Below, piece after piece: positions 4,768-58,400 of a DNA stretch of 64,000 nt. The DNA comes from Lama guanicoe (lineage: Eukaryota): the NCBI GenBank assembly GCA_013239625.1, contig MU053652.1, positions 5,943,902 through 6,007,901 on the forward strand. The letters are read 5' to 3'. Within the stretch, counting starts at the first letter, position 1; every line of letters starts with the position of its first letter. A model generated the notes under the pieces. The model searched no databases. It saw only the letters and a list, made by a program, of their open reading frames with translations, and was not told the origin of the DNA. The position numbers and the translations under genes were made by a program.

Positions 4768-4968
4768 GGCTGGAGCGAATTGCACGGGATTCATCTTACG
4801 AACAAGAAGGAAAGGTCCAGTTTGTGATTGATGCCGTGTATTCCATGGCTTATGCTCTGCACAATATGCACAAAGATCTCTGCCCTGGATACATTGGCCT
4901 TTGCCCACGAATGAGTACCATTGATGGGAAAGAACTTCTCGGTTATATTCGAGCTGTGAATTTCAATG
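4768..4968 (+). CDS. GRM8: Internal coding exon (201 bp, phase 1-1) of metabotropic glutamate receptor 8, Venus-flytrap domain
   Basis: Translates (G)[66 protein letters not shown](G). This matches mGlu8 as I recall it (approx. aa 386-453) and differs from the mGlu4 and mGlu7 paralog sequences. Acceptor ttttattttgcag (AG 4766-4767); donor G|GTAAGT (GT 4969-4970). Confidence 0.97.
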
Positions 4969-12824: not shown

Positions 12825-13305
12825 GAAGCACAGGCTTTCTACTCAAGAGTTTGAATCCAGTTTCAGCACTCACTACTTTGTGATCTTGGTCAAGTAACAA
12901 AACCTCTTTACATCTTTGTTTCCATGTCTATAACACAGAGATGTTAATAATATATATACATTATTCAGGAGATTAAGCCCCTGTGAGTCTCATCTTTTGC
13001 AAATATTTTCTCCCACTCCATAGGTTGTGTTTTTGTTTTGCTTATGGTTTCCTTTGCTGTGCAAAAGCTTGTAAGTTTAATTAGGTCCCATTTGTTTATT
13101 TTTGCTTTTATTTCTATTGCTTGGGTAGACTGCCCTAGGAGAACATTGCTGAGACTTATGTCGGATAATGTTTTGCCTATGTTTTCTTCTAAGAGGTTTA
13201 AAGTGTCTTGTCTTACGTTTAAGTCTTTAGTATATATACTTCAGAGTTCCCGTGAAACGTAAATAGAAGTTGAGACTATACAGAAAGTGCTCAATAAACA
13301 TATTA
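12825..13305 (+). mobile_element. MIR interrupted by an L1 fragment
   Basis: gtttgaatccagtttcagcact..tgtgatcttggtcaagt..(insert)..aaagtgctcaataaa. Confidence 0.7.
12960..13230 (-). mobile_element. Young L1 ORF2 internal fragment, no 3'UTR or polyA
   Basis: Minus strand translates KDLNVRQDTLNLLEENIGKTLSDISLSNVLLGQSTQAIEIKAKINKWDLIKLTSFCTAKETISKTKTQPMEWEKIFAKD. Flanked by the direct repeat TATATATAC (12951-12959, 13231-13239). Confidence 0.9.
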
Positions 13306-17467: not shown

Positions 17468-18564
17468 CCTCTCTCTCTTTCTATAGAAATAGAAGAACTG
17501 ATATGATGGAAAGAAAGGTATGTTTCTTTGCCAATGTCAAGGTAAAGTTTCTAACTTCATGGGGATTGAGTAAGAGTAGAATTTTTGAATTACTTTGTAT
17601 CTTTGAACAGGGACTTGGATAAACCAAGTGACATCTGAGCTGTGTTATCTTTGGCTGGCATTTATAGAAAAAAATTTCCAGAGCCAGTTCATTACCTATA
17701 TTATTATTTTTTAATCTTAAGAATTGACAGCAAGAAGAATAAAAAATGTATAGAGCACTGTGACCAGCATCCATCTTCTTTACTGCATTTTTTAGAACAT
17801 CATAATTTAGGCATGATGTGGTTGCAGATAAGTGTCATGTGCTATTTTAAAATCTTGGTGATCTTCTGCAGATTTTATATCCTCCATTCAGAAAAGCCCA
17901 GATGTGAGTTTAGGTGATCTGTGGTTCCATTTGATAGCACCAGGGACTATGCTTGGAGAGTCAACCTAACATAAAAAATTAACCCTGTGCATTTCAAGAG
18001 TCCTTTTAAATAATAATACCTGACTAACCTATCCATCATTTGAATTAGTAATAAAATGTTAAGTGCCATGTCATTATCCAGCGACAGTTCTCTAAGGTTT
18101 TAAATACTTCTTCTGTGGATAAGGGAATATGATTACTTAATCACTGCGATTGAAAAAAAAAAAAAGACTTTTCATAGTTTCCTGGCAAAGACACTGATGT
18201 CACAAATACAGATAATTCTAGGGTGAGTTCAGATCACTCTAAATGTAGAGTAGGAAGGGTCAAATAAAATTAGCTATATGTTGTTCAGGAAAAAAAAATT
18301 GCTGAAAACTTTGTGTATTGTTTCCTGTTCTCATCATAGATTTTGAATTGTCAGAATCCTATTAATATTTGAGGAGAAAAATAATCTTATTTGGGACTCA
18401 TATTCAAACAAATATGTATGTGTAAAGATGAGAAGCCCCTGATAACCATTCATTCTCCAGGCTTTCTTATTTTGTATCTCAGTAAAAGATTTCTTTTGAT
18501 GGTAAACTTTAAATGTATCCATATTAAGTCTTTTTAGTGCTAATTACCTTGAATCTCACCATAT

Positions 18565-19170
18565 TGCAATAATAATCCCAGGCATCTTAATGCTTTTCAT
18601 TTTAAAGTACTTTCCCATATATTCTCTCATTAGCCCTAACAGCTGTGTGTGGGAGGGCACGTACGTGTGTTAGGTAGTTTAGATAGAAATGAACACTGGG
18701 CAGGGAGAGAGAATTATTAATTCACTAATAGAATTTTGCTTATCATGCTTAAAAAAAAAATAGTGAAAGATGGTGCACTGCCGAGAATTGGGAGCGGGCG
18801 AATCCAAGAGAAGAAAAATGGCGCCACTCTCTCCTTCCTCCTGTTTTTATATCCTGGTTTTGTAACTGATTGATTAATTGATTGATTGACTGGTTAACTG
18901 ACTGATTCCCTGTGCTCTGGTTAGTTGACAGCCCAGGTTCCCTGCGCTCTGGTTAACTGACAGCCCAGGTTCCTTGTGTTCTGGGTTGTTCCTTTTCCCC
19001 TCCTCTCCCCCTGCCCAGTGCTCATTTCTAGCTAAACTACCTAACACGTGAATGTTATTGTGCCATTTGACAACAGAGATGTATAAACAGAGATGTTAAG
19101 TCATATATTCAAGACTCCCAGATACTAAATCAAGAATTGGGACTAGACCCAGAATTTTCAACTCTGTGTT
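18565..19170 (-). mobile_element. MIR (MIRc-like) split by the 18668-19046 insertion
   Basis: The flanks read aaagtactttcccatatattctctcatt..|..ttattgtgccattt..acagagatgttaagt..gggactagacccag and join into one antisense MIR. Confidence 0.55.
18668..19046 (-). mobile_element. 379-bp ERV1-LTR-like element with 38-bp terminal inverted repeats and 4-bp TSD
   Basis: TG..CA ends; CGTG on both sides (18664-18667, 19047-19050); arms 18668-18705 and 19009-19046 match at 36/38. Internal 32-bp tandem repeats; minus-strand TATAAAA near 18845-18851. Confidence 0.8.
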
Positions 19171-19249
19171 TCGTGCTCCAAGTATCAAAGCAGCTGCTGA
19201 GATAGGATATTGCTCTGAAGGTAGCCTATTAAAATTGCCAATAAATCTC

Positions 19250-23686: not shown

Positions 23687-24338
23687 TTTTTTTTCAAGTT
23701 CAAATGCTCTTTTCCTCAGTTTTTTCTTTTTTTTTAACTTTTTTTTGTTGAGTTATAGTCATTTTACAACGTTGTGTCAAATTCCAGTGTAGAGCACAAT
23801 TTTTCAGTTATACATGAACATACATATACTCATTGTCACATTCTTTTTCGCTGTGAGGTACCACACGATCTTGTATATATTTCCCTGTTCTATACAGTAT
23901 AATCCTGTTTATCTATTCTACATTTTGAAATCCCAGTTCGTTCCCACCCACCGTCCCCCTGGCAACCACAAGTTTGTATTCTATGTCTATGAGTCTATTT
24001 CTGTTTTGTATTTGTTTTGTTTTTTTTTTAAGATTCCACATATGAGTGATCTCATATGATATTTTTCTTTCTCTTTCTGGCTTACTTCACTTAGAATGAC
24101 ATTCTCCAGGAACATCCATGTTGCTGCAAATGGCGTTATGTTGTCGGTTTTTATGACTGAATAGTATTCCATTGTATAAATATACCACATTTTCTTTATC
24201 CAGTCATTTGTTGATGGACATTTAGGCTGTCTCCATGTCTTGGCTATTGTAAATAGTGCTGCTATGAGCCCTGGGATGCAGGTGTCATTTTGAAGTAGGG
24301 TTCCTTCTGGATATATGCCCAGGAGCGGGATTCCTGGG
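23687..24338 (-). mobile_element. Young 5'-truncated L1 (ORF2 C-terminus plus 3'UTR) with 12-bp TSD
   Basis: ORF track [41 protein letters not shown] is the L1 ORF2 end. TSD TCATAGGTCCTT at 23675-23686 and 24339-24350. Confidence 0.93.
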
Positions 24339-25694
24339 TCATAGGTCCTTAAATAGCATCACGAGAAATATAAGCATAAAGAAACAGGAAAGAATGCCAT
24401 AAATATTTTGTAGGCGGGTAATAAAAATAAGATCGGTTACTATGTTGGCAACAGAGTATGGCTATTAGTGAAAACCAAGCAGAATAATTTAGATTTGATG
24501 GTGTAGGCAAAAGGAGGGAGCCATTGTAGTTCCTTGCTGTGTTACTAGGCCTTTATTTCTAGTAAGTTACCATCAGACAGATTGTTTGGTCTCCGTTATA
24601 AAATCTTTGTCAAATCAAGGGATTAGATCTTCTTAGAGGGACTGGCCAAAGAGGTTAACACACATATGTAAAACTGGCAGGATACAAGACCTCCGAAGAA
24701 GATGAGGCTAGTAGCCAGGAACGTATGCCTTTCAATGTGTTAAAATTCAAATGTAAACGTTTTATTTGCCGACCACATATTCCTGCAGTTGGAGTTATAA
24801 ACAGTGGAAACAATAACAACAGCAAGCTGCAGGCAAGTCACGTCTCCGAAAAAGTCACAGCAATGCATATGATTGTCTTCTTGTCCCCAAGTACGGTCAT
24901 ATTTTGAAGACTAGTTTGTATTACTTTTGTCAAATTCACAAGGGTTGGGATATTTTTAAAAATATGACTTAATTCTTCTTGATTTCCCTACCGATGTTTC
25001 CCATGGTGAGTTTACAAATGTATGTACCTAATCTATATGAAATTATCACATTAAAACTCATTGTAGTATTTTATCATAAAGGTCTCTTTGCGAATTTAAG
25101 AAGCAGTCCTTCCTTAGCTTTGTTTAGGGAAATGAATGTGTGCAAAAAAAAAGAATTTTCAGAAGGTGTAAATTTACTATCTGAGTTACAGTAAGTTACA
25201 ATGAGTTACAATGAAGTGTTAAGCAGAATGTATACTGAATACATACAATATATTCCAAATTGCTTTCTATTGAGAAGATTTAATTTAATATTTGGAAGGA
25301 GAAAGCACATGATAAAAGAAACGATCTTGTGAACATTCAGTTTATAGAAAGAAATTCAATATTCATGAGTTAGGGAGAATAGATTTGCAAGCAAAGATTG
25401 TACTACAGAATAGAATCAAAAGGAATGAAATCTCACAAGTATGATTTGCCATCTCAAAAGTTAAAAAAAGTAACTCTTCAAATTTTATGCCTAGTATTAA
25501 TATTAGGGGAAAAAACAGAGCACAGGGGGGTAATTACCATTAATAAGCATGTGCAGGTTAGTGAATGATTTCATTTTCGAACCTACTACAGCGTCCCCAG
25601 TGAAGACGTTTATGAAGCAGCTGGACACACCCACACACAAGACCAAGGGGAGTAAAGATACGGATATATCACTATATGGACAGTGACGGAAACT

Positions 25695-27587: not shown

Positions 27588-27814
27588 TCCTAATAATAGC
27601 TCTCCATTAGCACTGTAGTATGAAGGAGGAAGGAAAAAACCATTGTGAACACGTGTAGACAAACTATACTCTTACAGAAGCAGCTCAAATATTATTGTAT
27701 TTAAACATTTCGGTGCTCCCACTTAGTATAATTTCTTTAAGGATTACCAAGATGGAGAAAATGTTCTGTTTAGCCATGGCTGGATTTCCTCTCTGTTTTT
27801 ACTTCAGGTAGATA

Positions 27815-28097
27815 CACTCTCCTTCATTCTCTCCATCCCTCCCTCCTCCCCTCTCTCCTTCCTTCCTTCATTCTTTTCTTTTCTTTTCTTTTCTTTTCTT
27901 TTCTTTTCTTTTCTTTTCTTTTTTCTTTTCTCTTCCTTCCTTCCTTCCTTTTTCCTTCTTTCTTTCTTTCTCTTTCTTTCCTTTTCTTTCTTTCTCTTTC
28001 TTTCTTTCTTACTTACTTTCTTTCTTTCTGTCTGTCTTTCTTCTCCCCTTCTTTCTTTCTTTCTTTCTTCCCTCTTACCTTTTTTCTTTTTTTTTCC
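27815..28097. repeat. Compound polypyrimidine microsatellite (TTTTC)n/(TTCC)n/(TTTC)n
   Basis: About 280 bp of almost only C/T on the + strand. Confidence 0.95.
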
Positions 28098-28559
28098 TGT
28101 AAGATTATGATTGAAATCTAATTTTGTATTGTTTTAAAAACTTGTCAGAAATGTCAATGTAAGATATAATATGAAAAGTGAATAATTTTACTAACACATG
28201 CACTGAAAATCAATTTCTATCCTTGGGACGTTACCCTATATGTCTTCAAATATTTAAAAATGAAAATGGCAGAGGTTTTATTGGATCTGCATTACAGTAC
28301 ATTAAACTATAGTATCTTTATATGGGAGAATGACTCTTTAAACTGCCAATTAGTTGCATCCTTTCACTGAAATTTTACTACATACACTCCAGGTTCAGTT
28401 TTGCACTGGTCTATTTTTCAGATATTAAAGACTTTATGTTTTATTTTTCAGAGCCTGCTTTTACTTACTGTCTGCCAAACACTGAGTCAAAGGCATCATG
28501 ACTGAGACGAGTTTTGCTTTGGCCTCCATCCATGGCCGAGGCAGTCTTCAGTGCCTACA

Positions 28560-39330: not shown

Positions 39331-40070
39331 AAAAAAATATTTTTCCTACCAAGTAATTTTTTTAATTAAGAAGAAACACCGCTCATTGCCCAACATATAA
39401 CATGATATCATAATACATTATATATTATGATGTCAATTCCATGTGTATTATGTATAATAAAGTGAAAAATACTTTAACAAAGTAAAAGCAAGAAAAATTT
39501 GTGCTTTGCTAATCTTTTCTTTTATTACAACTTCCATTAGGACAATTCAGTCAGTGTTAGAAATGTTCTTTAATAATCCTAATGTTTTTACCTCACTTTA
39601 TCAGAAATACATTGACCTGCATAGGTCAATTAGTGAAAAAGAAAAAAAAAAGACAATAACTAAGATGATTTAAACATAATTAGTTTAGTCTGAGTATGCC
39701 TCTAAGATAAACTGAATTATTCTTCACTCCTTAACTAGTTTAAGAAAAATTTTATTTTCCATTCCTTGAAATTTTGGTTCAGAAAACAGTGATTCAATGG
39801 AAAGTAGAAAGCAGTTATTTGAAAAGACAATAATTCCTCATTAAAAAAAATTAATGATGATAAAGCAAAAAGAAAATACTTCCCTTATACTACTATTTTT
39901 CATGTGTAGATATGCTACAATATATTTGACCCGGCTTTCCATTAGGCAGAAATTACTAACTGCATAAAGTAGAATGGGTGATATTTAAAAATATATCTTA
40001 TAAAGCTCTCTATATGCTATATTAATATTTTTGATTAAACAGAAGACTAATATTTCTTCAATCATGATTT

Positions 40071-40192
40071 TTTTTGAGGGGGGATGTAATTTGATTCATT
40101 TATTTATGTTCTTAATGGAGGTGCTGGGGGTTGAACTCAGGACCTCATACATGCCAAGCATGTACTCTACCAGTTGAGCTATACCCTCCCCC
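40071..40192 (-). mobile_element. tRNA(Ala)-derived camelid SINE (vic-1-like)
   Basis: Minus strand GGGGAGGGTATAGCTCAACTGGTAGAGTACATGCTTGGCATGTATGAGGTCCTGAGTTCAACCCCCAGCACCTCCA, with A and B boxes and an A-rich tail. TSD ttcttcaatcatgattt/ttcttcattcattattt (15/17). Confidence 0.9.
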
Positions 40193-52230: not shown

Positions 52231-52793
52231 TAGCCACGTCTGAATGTGCTTCTCCAAGGAGTCCATTGGTACAATCCAGCCTTCCAAATCTAGGATTATA
52301 TAGGTTTGGGCTGAGCCATTCCTCAAAACAGCCAACATCAGAAAAATCAAAACAACAACAAGATCAACCAAATGAGGTGAGGATTAGGACTAGAAGAGAA
52401 AAAATGTTCCATTATCTAAATATTTTCTCTTTAAACGTTGGAGAGTGGGTAGAGGGGAAATACGAAATATTTGGCAGTACATTTTAATGAAGGTGTGGGG
52501 AGGTCTTGTCCACAGAGCTTTTCTCTAAATGAATGTTCATTAAATGAAAGTGAATCAACGTTTGAAGGAGTGCATGGCAGGAGACAGAAAAAAAGAGAAT
52601 GAGAGCAAGAAAAATACATTAAGCCAATTGAGTATAATGTGAAAATAAATTGAGGGTGTTTTTTTTTTTAGTGGACCTATGAAACTATGCAAAGTCAATT
52701 CCAAAGAGGAATTCCAAAGTAAGTGTTCTAGGCTGTGACCACAGCACCAAGAAAGTGTTTAAACTTCCAAGGGGTCACAAAAGGACATGTTTC

Positions 52794-53084
52794 AGACTGA
52801 CAGACATAGGAAACAAACTTACGGTTACCGGGGGGTGGAAAGGAGGTAGGAAGGGATAAATTGGGAGTCTGAGATTTGCAGGTACTAACTACTCTATATA
52901 AAATAGATAAACAGCAAGTTTCTACTGTATAGCACAGGGAACTATATTCAATATCTTGTGGTAACCTACAATGAAAAAGAATATGAAAACGAATATATGT
53001 ATGTATCCGTATGACTGAGACATTATACAGTCCACCAGAAATTGACATATCATAAACTGACTATACTTCAATTTAAAAAAAAAA
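52794..53084 (+). mobile_element. Young artiodactyl-type L1 3' end with polyA and TSD
   Basis: actgtatagcacagggaactatattcaatatcttg..aactgactatacttcaatttAAAAAAAAAAA. TSD ACATGTTTC at 52785-52793 and 53085-53093. Confidence 0.9.
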
Positions 53085-55170: not shown

Positions 55171-56449
55171 TTTACCTTCTCACATAGCATATAATGTTGA
55201 CTATACATTAATTTCCTTTTGAGATGGAGAAAAGTAAGATGGCCTTAGAGAGCTAAACATTTTCCTTAAAGGAGTAGAGACTAAGATCATTTTCTTCAGA
55301 AGTGCAGTAGATCATGACAAAGACTTAAGGCCACCTCCATAAGAAACATCTCTGGGCATCTATAAGAAGTTAATAATGGTGGTAAGAGCCCAAGGGGAGG
55401 TGGGCGGCACACATGTACAAAGTGTAGTCACCGAATCCTGTAGCTCTCAGCCAGCTCTGGACAGGGAAGGGGGAGAACATATGCACAACGGAGATGACTC
55501 TGGAGACAAACAATTCTAGAGACTGGAAATGGAAAGCAGATGGGAAATCTCAAGTTAGCATCTGGTTGTATCTACCTGTGGCTCCCACTGGCCGTGATGC
55601 CCGTGCAAAGTAGTCAGTGGAGATGCTGCCCTGACAAGTCCTCATCTCCACCTCAGACCAGCGTAATGGAAACTCATCAGCACAAACGAAACTTACCAGC
55701 GCAGACACAAAGCTCATCATCGCAAATGCTTTAACCTGACTCATGCCAGGCTGTGGAATTTCTAAATCAAAACCCCAGACCTTTGTGAATCAAATCTCTT
55801 CCCCTGTTCTAGAACCTGATTCTGAAATAGTCAGGTATAAAGTAACTATTTATATTGGTCTCTAAAGAATGCATCTTTAAAAACTTCCTTATATGGAGCA
55901 AGCTTAGCCTTGAGAAATGAGAAAATAGAAATAACACACTGAAGTTCTGAAAGGCATCTCTGTTCAAATCAAGGGATCTACTCAACTTGTGAAAGAGTCT
56001 TTCCTAGAAATACGTTTGTATTCTCAGCTTGATTTTTAGGTAAATAGATTTTTCTAAAAAATTAATTAGATATTAACCAAAAAAATCTAGTAACTTAAGG
56101 TCTATTATTATTTTGATTAAATAGTTGTCTTGTGGATTTTATTTTTTACAAATATGTAAATTGGTAATATGCAATATAGGGTAACACGTATTTTCAAATA
56201 TTCCGTGTCACACTCCTTTGACATAGAAATAAACGCTATCTTGAAAAATACGTGGAAAAAATTGTATGTAAAGAAAGCATGGTTATTGACCTGCCTTATT
56301 TTCTGAATTGTCTCTTTTTGAGGAAACTTGTCCACAGCTGTATGTCTCAGCCAGGTTTGACCTGCTCTCCCATCATGAAGGAGGCCAACGGTCGGCTGTG
56401 TTTGCTGAACTCTGTCCCTCCCGCCACTCATGTCCCTGGAGGGCTCACA

Positions 56450-58400
56450 TGCCTATTATATGCAGGTCCAGCAGGCTCCTGTGTGTCTCTTCATCCTACC
56501 AAGCCTGGACCTGTCCGTTAGTCACTCTAATCCTTTCCATTTCCAGTCTCTAGAATGATCTGTCTTGGGAATCAGCTCTGTTGTGCAAGCTTTCTACCTC
56601 TTCCCTGTCCAGAATTGGCTGAGAGCTACAGGATCTGGTGACTTCACCATTATACATGTGTACCATGCACTTTCCTTTGGGTTCTCCCCACTATTATTAA
56701 CTTTTTATAGATGCCCAAAGACGTTGCTCATGGAGATGGCCTTTAGTCTTTTTCATGATCTGCTACTCTTCCCAAGCAAATGATCTTACTCCCTCCTTCT
56801 TGCAAGAAAATGTTTAGCCTCTAAGGTCTCGTGTAGTTGCTTTTCTCCGTCTCATAAAAATGTTTAAGAAACTCTTATCTCCTTCCTGCTCCCCTTGACA
56901 TGTTTATTGCTGCTCTTCATCAATGGAGGAGGAGCTCGCTGGCCTAGTTTTGAGAATAACCCCTGCACTCTTGTTCATGGTCCTCCTTTTCTCTCTCATG
57001 CTTTTTCTCTCTCAGTTGCTCCCATTTCTTTAGTCTGTCTTCTGCCTACAGATATTCTCAAATATTCTGTCTCTGCATGAGAGTAGAGTGATTTTTTTTT
57101 TTAAAAAAGTGATCCTTAAAAACATCCTCAGGGAGAATGAATTTTCTTGGTTCTTGGAGTTTCTGGGCAGGGGCACAGGTGGAGAAGAGGACGGATTAGA
57201 AGTTTGGACAAAGGAGGATGTGTGACCAGAAGGAGGGAGTGAGAAACGACATTCCATTGGGGTATTTAGGAAGGGATTACTGGAATGCTGGGTGTGATAC
57301 ATCCTGAAGTCAGACTTTCTAGCAGCACCCACCTTCGGGACTCTGGGAGAACAACATAACCAGATGCCACAGGGGAGCAAAAGGTATTACAGAAAAACAG
57401 GAGTTATTACAAGCCTAACTGATCTCCTTCTCAATTTCAGTGCATTTCTGTAGAGAAATAACTTAGCTGTCAAATACACTTCCCTGGCTAACTGCTTCAT
57501 AACTCCAGATAGTTATGGAAAATGCTGCTGCCAACATGATTTTTAAATTAGGCCAATTAGACTGAAAAACCAGGAGTCTTAAGACTGACTCTATATAAGG
57601 GGGAAAAAAAACTGTTTTGAGAAAGAAATCAGGCTAGCCTTTTAGAAAGGAAAAAATAAATATGTTTATTAAATTTGCATGCCTAAATTTAAATGTCTCC
57701 TAATCCATCCAATGCAATTGCATCAAGCAGATTATTACTGAGCGCCTACTATGTGTCTAGCTATGCGAGAGAATGCAAATGTCTGGCTTAAAGTTAACAC
57801 TCTGCAAGTGGATACTGTCATTATTGAATTACCTTTTGCTAGTGTCTGAGTTCCTTCAAGCCAGGGGCTGTGCCTTTAATGTCTTGAAACCTAACCAATT
57901 CCTAGTGTAGACTAGATCATAGGAAAAACTAAATAAATGTTTAATGAAGGGAAGGAAGACCACTGAAATGAAGTATTCACTGGAACTACTTCCCCCCGAC
58001 ACGCAATGCCTGATGGCAGACACACTTTGCTTCTAATGCACACCCCATGTGCTACTGGATACCCATCTCGTTTCCAGTTTGCTTACAGCTCTGACTCCTC
58101 TTTGAAATTCTAAAAAGTGAATATAGGGACTTTAACTTTTCATGTTTTGAATGTCTAATACATTATAATGGCTACATCTCTGTAAGGGTGAAAGTTAATC
58201 TGCCTTTGCTGTTCTGGTGAGCCATTATAGGTTCTTGATTAGTGGGGGGTTATGACGATAGTAATGTTTTGGGAAGATCAAGTAATTGTGTAGAAATGGA
58301 TTGTTATGAAGAAAGACTGATGGTAGGGCTGCCAAGTAGGCATGTGGTAACAAAGACCAAGGACGAAGGTCTCAGTGAGTGTTTAAGCCACTTCTGCAGT
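56450..58400. mobile_element. Cluster of L2 fragments in both orientations
   Basis: Pyrimidine-rich + piece ~56450-57080; purine-rich - piece ~57150-57400; tails ttactgagcgcctactatgtgtctag (~57735) and ataaatgtttaatgaa (~57935). Confidence 0.5.

What the first reader, a model, noticed from the sequence alone, without database searches (positions are those of the whole stretch)
18664..19050. LTR-like element with long terminal inverted repeats: a U3 start at both ends
Seen: a 379-bp unit (18668-19046) bounded by TG..CA with an exact 4-bp TSD (CGTG), splitting an old MIR. Left arm TGTTAGGTAGTTTAGATAGAAATGAACACTGGGCAGGG and the reverse complement of the right arm TGTTAGGTAGTTTAGCTAGAAATGAGCACTGGGCAGGG match at 36/38. 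On the minus strand the interior looks like an ERV1 LTR: tandem repeats, TATAAAA and an R-like segment. There is no canonical AATAAA, and where U5 should be there is an inverted copy of the U3 start. Known: class I ERV integrases give 4-bp TSDs, but LTRs normally have only short terminal inverted repeats; the arm resembles my recollection of MER66/MER4-group U3 starts. Ginger DNA transposons also have TGT ends, long TIRs and 4-bp TSDs. Inference: a non-autonomous MITE-like family mobilised by an integrase, an aberrant two-U3-end integration, or post-insertion template switching that extended the short LTR inverted repeat.
Basis: partly seen in the sequence, partly recalled or inferred. Interest (0 to 1): 0.72.

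Follow-up and report, generated by a model that had tools for sequence, protein, structure and literature searches.

The report
Retroviral LTR folded back on itself
A leftover end-piece (solo LTR) of a camelid endogenous retrovirus carries a mirrored copy of its own start, so it looks like a DNA transposon, but other copies of its family lack this layout and it is most likely a single old copying accident.

Summary
The 379-bp unit, TG..CA ends, CGTG duplication and 44-bp inverted arms (41/44) are real. The arm-to-interior junction is present in all 4 camelid-type organisms laid. Contigs show a large LTR-like family: about 1,000x single-copy depth on the U3 start, about 90-100x on the interior, but at most 5-8x extra over 18728-18753, and the junction contig has single-copy depth. 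New here: other copies continue past 18753 with an AATAAA-bearing segment that lies reversed in this copy (18721-18748), between two TTAA palindromes (shown in 1 of 4 runs). The simplest reading is one fold-back at the LTR's 3' end that copied back to the LTR start, then loss of about 240 nt from one arm. Whether this happened on the chromosome (about 0.5) or before integration, giving two U3 ends (about 0.25), cannot be told. A MITE-like family is not supported; a few sister copies are not excluded, because no whole second copy was seen. The scan noted a similar LTR snap-back in another genome (e1-7556736, unchecked). Probably intronic in GRM8.

The parts
18664..18667 (+). Left copy of the 4-bp target-site duplication (CGTG)
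   Evidence: element boundary backed by loose ends before 18668
18668..18711 (+). Left arm: U3 start of the LTR, LTR sense on +; 41/44 identical to the right arm (42/46 if taken to 18713)
18714..18720 (+). Short T-rich tail ending in the first TTAA palindrome (18717-18720); pairs 6/7 with 18749-18755
18721..18748 (+). PolyA-signal segment of the family, LTR sense on +, so reversed against the adjoining interior; its hexamer (18727-18732) is non-canonical here; loop of the inferred fold-back
   Evidence: table 7 (X1, 9 contigs, before 18753), 23 matches in 28 columns by eye
18749..18760 (-). Second TTAA palindrome (18749-18752) and A-run: the turn point, where orientation switches
18761..19002 (-). 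LTR interior on the minus strand: U3 tandem repeats (18863-18984), TATAAAA (18851-18845), R-like region; about 90-100x single-copy depth where alignable
19003..19046 (-). Right arm: U3 start of the LTR, LTR sense on minus; about 800-1,200x single-copy depth
19047..19050 (+). Right copy of the 4-bp target-site duplication (CGTG)
   Evidence: 32-36 contigs per run diverge into unlike flanks behind 19046

Best explanation
A single rearranged solo LTR of an abundant camelid class-I-like ERV family. An integrase made the 4-bp duplication (inferred from TG..CA ends and the repeat). On the chromosome, a new strand that had almost reached the LTR's 3' end folded back about 30 nt, primed by pairing one TTAA with another, copied its own LTR backwards to the U3 start, and rejoined the original template through the short terminal inverted repeat that LTRs carry, so the duplication stayed intact. 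The near-perfect palindrome then lost about 240 nt from one arm, or the polymerase skipped them in the same event. What is left is U3 start, polyA segment, turn, mirrored interior, mirrored U3 start. It is dead, fixed and has no shown function. Shown: anatomy, reversed segment, family abundance, low depth at the junction. Inferred: order of events, host origin, the normal 3' terminus.
For: Every base of the unit is assigned to LTR pieces in two orientations with one turn point. Junction contig 18676-18842 (or 18668-18821/18842) has single-copy depth in 4 of 4 runs: 10.5, 47.1, 9.98, 10.5 against flanks 11.7/9.9, 48.8/46.5, 12.5/12.2, 11.3/12.5. Depth ratio falls from 114-123x on the left arm to 12-15x (18702-18727) and 5.7-8.9x (18728-18753), then rises to 73-97x; the low bins can be explained by their edges. 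The loose end before 18753 matches the reverse complement of 18721-18745 and holds AATAAA; the shared 7+9-letter motif occurs once in the window and in 0 of 100 shuffles. Its median length of 37 nt suggests that normal copies end there (inference). The reversed segment is flanked by a 6/7 inverted repeat, like human-chimpanzee microinversions (PMC8755829). Single inverted repeats are the majority outcome of template switches (PMC7954356); fold-back at microhomologies is described at yeast breaks (PMC11724301 abstract).
Against: No whole second copy of the family was seen, so its normal 3' end is not observed. The key loose end is listed for 1 of 4 runs (9 contigs); 457 loose-end rows, 7 joints and 2,487 pieces were hidden. 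Left-arm depth (114-123x) is close to interior depth, as a family with this arm at its 3' end would also give; I put it down to cross-mapping (58-89 of 550-724 records fit two places). Summed contig depth is not a copy number, as the tool warns. A copy of about 295 nt is longer than published local switches (median 12, max 128, within a 100-nt search range; 5-34 bp in yeast). The priming match is only 4 to 7 nt. Arm divergence (3/44; 3.4% per arm, 0.7-10%) does not separate the event from the insertion (at least 14 of 247 sites differ from the majority).
Confidence: 0.5

Rival explanations
1. The same one-off structure arose before integration: plus-strand strong-stop DNA snapped back at its 3' end and ran off exactly at its own U3 start; after conversion to a duplex it had a U3 att site at both ends, integrase inserted it with a 4-bp duplication, and one arm later shortened.
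For: Run-off at the strand's 5' end explains the exact mirrored terminus without a return step (established reverse-transcription scheme; passage in PMC7197481). Both termini abut a perfect duplication. RT misalignment makes asymmetric LTRs and inversions in HIV proviruses (PMC9278108). Arm divergence allows an age close to the insertion.
Against: A snap-back hairpin has one free end and needs a further step to gain a second. No primer-binding-site-like stretch was recognised at the turn (by eye). No described two-U3 provirus turned up in the listings.
Confidence: 0.25
2. A small sister lineage exists: an ancestral provirus gained the inverted U3 start as its 3' end and spread a few times, and this copy is one member.
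For: Depth leaves room for up to 5-8 further copies over 18728-18753 and 19-25 reaching 18716. Most rows were hidden. Diverged sister copies would not raise the depth of the exact junction contig.
Against: The excess depth is also explained by bin edges. None of the 15 joints shown links the interior at 18753 to an arm; the two opposite-strand joints (18701-19008, 18709-18993; one contig each) read as ordinary U3 starts. Arm and reversed segment lie within 5 nt and share one orientation, which favours one event.
Confidence: 0.12
3. Long inverted ends are normal for the roughly 100-copy subfamily, and only the 28-bp inversion is private to this copy.
For: Left-arm depth (114-123x) resembles interior depth (about 90-100x) in 4 of 4 runs; the normal 3' end was not seen.
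Against: Depth should then stay high to 18720 (about 70x for the bin) but is 12-15x. No loose end behind 18712-18720 is among the 24 rows shown. Loose ends at 18753 have a median of only 37 nt.
Confidence: 0.05
4. A MITE-like or Ginger-like DNA transposon moved by cut-and-paste.
For: 44-bp inverted ends, TGT start and 4-bp duplication fit Ginger's general outline (PMC2836005).
Against: The interior has LTR promoter and R-like parts shared with many copies that lack the junction. CGTG is neither CCGG/CCGT/ACGG (Ginger1) nor AT-rich (Ginger2); the passages read list only domesticated Gin genes for mammals.
Confidence: 0.02
5. Two different LTR copies were brought together tail to tail (nested insertion or ectopic conversion) and trimmed by deletion.
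For: The arms differ at 3 of 44 sites and the family is abundant.
Against: One shared duplication brackets both outer ends, and the turn point is a local near-palindrome.
Confidence: 0.04

Closest known systems
Solo LTRs of class I (gamma-like, ERV1) endogenous retroviruses; Repbase lists camelid LTR families such as LTR2_Vpa (name seen in PMC6726744; identity not tested)
   Same: TG..CA ends, 4-bp duplication, start fitting the general TGTTRNR pattern, TATA box, tandem U3 repeats, AATAAA in other copies, many dispersed insertions.
   Different: Inverted ends of 44 bp instead of about 7; polyA segment reversed; no normal 3' terminus; start does not fit the gamma-specific TGWAG motif of PMC3601003.
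Template-switch and fold-back inverted duplications (four-point model type 3-2-1-4, PMC7954356; yeast foldback insertions, PMC11724301; microinversions, PMC8755829)
   Same: A reversed segment between short inverted repeats and a new long inverted repeat made from local sequence.
   Different: The copied stretch would be about 295 nt, longer than in those sets, and its ends coincide with integrase ends and the duplication.
Ginger1/Ginger2 DNA transposons (PMC2836005)
   Same: TGT start, inverted ends of 40 bp or more, 4-bp duplication. That paper suggests Ginger TIRs came from two LTRs in opposite orientation, which this unit resembles.
   Different: No transposase, no Ginger target preference, no sign of spread as a unit.
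DIRS-1 retrotransposons with inverted LTRs (search listing and abstract starts only)
   Same: Inverted terminal repeats on a retroelement.
   Different: DIRS uses a tyrosine recombinase, not a DDE integrase; nothing links this unit to it.

Membership tests
ERV solo LTR (class I-like) | TG..CA termini with a 4-6-bp duplication (4 bp for gammaretroviruses) | tested here: met
   criteria from PMC8969392 and PMC2857682 abstract
ERV solo LTR (class I-like) | Short inverted repeat: general TGTTRNR start; gamma-specific TGWAGNMRR | tested here: inconclusive
   Start fits the general pattern, not the gamma-specific one
ERV solo LTR (class I-like) | U3-TATA-R order and a polyA signal | tested here: met
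   TATAAAA at 18851-18845; AATAAA in other copies' loose end (1 of 4 runs); reversed and non-canonical in this copy
ERV solo LTR (class I-like) | A U5 end distinct from U3 in this copy | tested here: not met
   Both termini are U3 starts; so it is a rearranged derivative, not an intact solo LTR
ERV solo LTR (class I-like) | Dispersed multi-copy family with sharp ends and unlike flanks | tested here: met
   32-36 contigs per run diverge behind 19046, agreement 0.38-0.40; about 1,000x depth on the U3 start
ERV solo LTR (class I-like) | Paired copies around PBS, gag/pol and PPT; match to a named Dfam/Repbase family | not testable with these tools
   No genome held; no repeat library; pattern scans found no relative
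MITE / non-autonomous TIR transposon | Terminal inverted repeats and a duplication | tested here: met
   41/44 arms, CGTG
MITE / non-autonomous TIR transposon | Many copies of the whole unit with both ends | tested here: not met
   Junction at single-copy depth; at most 5-8x extra over 18728-18753 against 73-97x in the next bin; a few copies not excluded
Ginger1/Ginger2 | Target preference CCGG/CCGT/ACGG (Ginger1) or RTATAY (Ginger2) | tested here: not met
   Duplication is CGTG (PMC2836005 passages)
Ginger1/Ginger2 | Autonomous partner with a Gypsy-like integrase and the same ends | not testable with these tools
   No genome held; none of 242 window ORFs scanned hit a transposase or integrase family
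MIR (host site) | Flanks collinear with the MIR consensus across the insertion | not testable with these tools
   No library; joined flanks found no second copy in the window; likeness is recalled

The most novel reading that the evidence does not exclude
A small camelid lineage (a few to about 20 loci) of two-U3-ended elements exists, each with its own 4-bp duplication, that a retroviral integrase accepted as a unit: a mammalian case of an LTR turning into a TIR-bounded mobile element, the step proposed for the origin of Ginger transposons.
Probability: 0.08. Interest if true: 0.8.

Novelty: new variant of a known kind. Interest (0 to 1): 0.28.

Why it matters
As a one-off it is a clean natural example of how an LTR can gain long terminal inverted repeats while keeping its target-site duplication, and a warning that structure-based MITE callers can be fooled by rearranged solo LTRs. 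If the event was pre-integration it would be germline evidence that integrase accepts DNA with two U3 ends. Only if sister copies exist would it bear directly on the proposed origin of integrase-type DNA transposons from inverted LTRs (PMC2836005). No function is shown; any hairpin in the probable GRM8 intron is untested.

Tried and rejected
No whole genome was held, so copies could not be read whole. No second copy in the window. Pattern scans for relatives: viral contigs 0 and 0, metagenome contigs 0 and 2 hits that had no similarity beyond the pattern and look bacterial, prokaryote genomes 0, phage records 0. Rfam gave only a tRNA-like SINE head elsewhere. Pfam on 242 of 247 stop-to-stop ORFs of 58 aa or more (5 low-complexity ORFs at 27727-28133 left out) gave one hit, the GRM8 exon. 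Flank comparison for the MIR found nothing. Assembly artefact rejected: the junction is in independent contigs of 4 of 4 runs. The two opposite-strand joints were rejected as evidence for sister copies, since they fit ordinary U3 starts with small deletions. Paper searches for an LTR family with long inverted ends or a two-U3 provirus listed none; the library lacks Repbase Reports and most subscription journals, and the supplements of PMC8605555, which hold camelid repeat libraries, could not be read, so 'not in print' is weak. Earlier-finding look-ups by sequence and relatives were empty.

Full report
Observation. The unit is as described. It spans 18668-19046 (379 bp), starts TG, ends CA, and is bracketed by CGTG as a direct repeat. 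The arms match 36/38 and 41/44, with differences at 18683, 18693 and 18706; it is the best-matched inverted pair among the 25 longest listed within 2 kb in the window. The minus strand has a 32-bp tandem repeat, TGAT-type repeats, TATAAAA at 18851-18845 and an R-like stretch; AATAAA is absent on both strands. The MIR claim could not be tested.

Context. An exon at 4768-4968 (+) matches GRM8. Six recalled short motifs found no later exon, so the element most likely lies in the following intron, 13.7 kb downstream. That is an inference.

Distribution. Of 24 runs listed, 19 runs from 9 studies and 4 organisms (A-D, about 2.0 Gb of contigs) hold 0.79-0.91 of 149 sampled words. I laid 4 of the 19, one per organism, on 18468-19247 at 80% likeness; 601, 724, 598 and 550 records were laid. 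No record spans the whole unit. In all four runs one contig joins the left flank to 29 nt of the left arm with no difference inside the arm, one covers the arm-to-interior junction (18676-18842 in X1 and X2, 18668-18821 in X5, 18668-18842 in X6) with no substitution, and one joins 30 nt of the right arm to the right flank. The structure is therefore not an assembly error and is older than the split of A-D.

Family or one-off. Against flank depth, the U3 start (18988-19039) is 798-1,184x and the interior (18754-18883) 73-210x, mostly 85-107x. The left arm is 114-123x, then depth drops to 12-15x (18702-18727) and 5.7-8.9x (18728-18753). The junction contig itself has single-copy depth in 4 of 4 runs. 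The excess in the two low bins can be produced wholly by their edges; taken as real, it caps further copies at 5-8 over 18728-18753 and 19-25 reaching 18716. Behind 19046, 32-36 contigs per run go on into unlike flanks (agreement 0.38-0.40), the mark of many separate insertions. Summed contig depth is not a copy number and a filter drops records, so these are rough bounds. One result cuts against my reading: left-arm depth is close to interior depth, which a subfamily with this arm at its 3' end would also give. I read it as cross-mapping of U3 starts, because 68 of 601, 89 of 724, 61 of 598 and 58 of 550 records fit two places and because depth collapses before 18720, where such a subfamily should still be at about 70x for the bin.

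In run X1, nine contigs leave the window's sequence just before 18753 (median 37 loose letters, agreement 0.73, table 7). Their letters match the reverse complement of 18721-18745 at 23 of 28 columns (compared by eye); the shared 7+9-letter motif occurs once in the window, on the minus strand at 18721-18742, and in 0 of 100 shuffles (the motif was chosen after seeing the match). In LTR sense those letters hold AATAAA. So the family's polyA segment is present here but reversed, between TTAA at 18717-18720 and TTAA at 18749-18752, which extend to a 6/7 inverted repeat. This row is listed for 1 of 4 runs; 24 loose-end rows were shown and 457 hidden. The median of 37 letters suggests that normal copies end about there, since an element's end is a strong branch point in contig graphs; that is inference, and the normal 3' end was not seen.

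Anatomy and mechanism. On the + strand the unit reads: duplication, U3 start (18668-18711), T-rich tail (18714-18720), polyA segment (18721-18748), then a turn, and the mirror image of tail, R, TATA, U3 repeats and U3 start (18749-19046), duplication. The first three pieces share one orientation and their natural order. One fold-back at the LTR's 3' end, primed TTAA to TTAA and copying to the LTR start, gives an LTR followed by its own mirror with the polyA segment as loop. Loss of about 240 nt from the first arm then gives exactly this. On the chromosome this is an intra-strand switch of type 3-2-1-4; such types are the majority outcome and give single inverted repeats (PMC7954356, passages). 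The return can use the short terminal inverted repeat of about 7 bp that LTRs carry (PMC3601003, passages), which keeps the duplication. Reversed segments of 17-33 nt between inverted repeats of 3 nt or more are known (PMC8755829, abstract and section 6), as are fold-back insertions at breaks (PMC11724301, abstract). Against this, published copied lengths are far shorter than 295 nt (median 12, max 128, search range 100 nt; 5-34 bp). The rival is the same fold-back on plus-strand strong-stop DNA, which would run off exactly at the U3 start and leave two U3 ends for integrase; it needs an extra step to open the hairpin. RT errors do yield asymmetric and inverted proviruses (PMC9278108, passages; PMC7197481, passages). 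Dating cannot decide: the arms differ by 3.4% each (0.7-10%), and the copy differs from the majority at 14 or more of 247 sites (30 rows of that table were hidden).

Comparison with known kinds. It derives from an ERV LTR: ends, duplication, TATA, polyA signal in other copies and dispersed family are met; class I is likely from the 4-bp duplication (PMC2857682, abstract; PMC8969392, passages), but the start fits only the general terminal pattern, not the gamma-specific one, and no named family could be tested. Camelid ERV1 elements are many (PMC8605555, passages and section 14; PMC6675863, passages), a Repbase name LTR2_Vpa exists (PMC6726744, passages), and alpaca had no family under 1% divergence in PMC3183009 (passages). 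It is not a MITE or Ginger member: the whole unit is not multi-copy and the target does not fit (PMC2836005, passages). That paper does suggest that Ginger TIRs came from two opposite LTRs, which is the shape seen here. Searches listed no LTR family with long inverted ends; Repbase Reports and the supplements of PMC8605555 were out of reach and may hold the family.

Verdict. A real, tidy, most likely unique rearrangement of an ordinary solo LTR: one-off readings together about 0.8 (host fold-back 0.5, pre-integration 0.25, two copies joined 0.04), small sister lineage 0.12, family-wide inverted ends 0.05, DNA transposon 0.02. New variant of a known kind; interest 0.28.

Noticed in passing
window 4768-4968 (+): 201-nt exon with AG/GT ends whose translation matches GRM8 (metabotropic glutamate receptor 8), E 1e-43.
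   Followed up: partly
window 18727-18732 (+): The polyA segment lies on the GRM8 sense strand and its hexamer is non-canonical; one change at about 5% divergence is within chance, and the intron has 57 other AATAAA on that strand.
   Followed up: partly
loose ends before 18979, behind 19035, before 18781, behind 18829: Other subfamilies share only the U3 start (27-31 contigs per run leave at 18979; 24-26 have a slightly different terminus at 19035) or differ in R; most of the 1,000x depth belongs to them.
   Followed up: no
window 40060-40188 (-): tRNA-derived SINE, Rfam tRNA hit 43 bits; looks like the camelid SINE by recall.
   Followed up: partly
window 55217-55536 and 56533-56857: Inverted pair of about 320 bp, 80% identical, about 1 kb apart; probably two old repeats in opposite orientation.
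   Followed up: no
window 12968-13259, 23739-24358, 52793-53082: L1-like fragments, judged from ORF2-like translations (recalled likeness) and self-matches.
   Followed up: no
window 18660: Organisms C and D read A where the window and organisms A and B read C, 4 nt left of the duplication; C and D also show 3 differences in 18831-19016, so the four organisms fall into two pairs.
   Followed up: no
window 27727-28133: Long CT-rich low-complexity tract giving several open frames.
   Followed up: no
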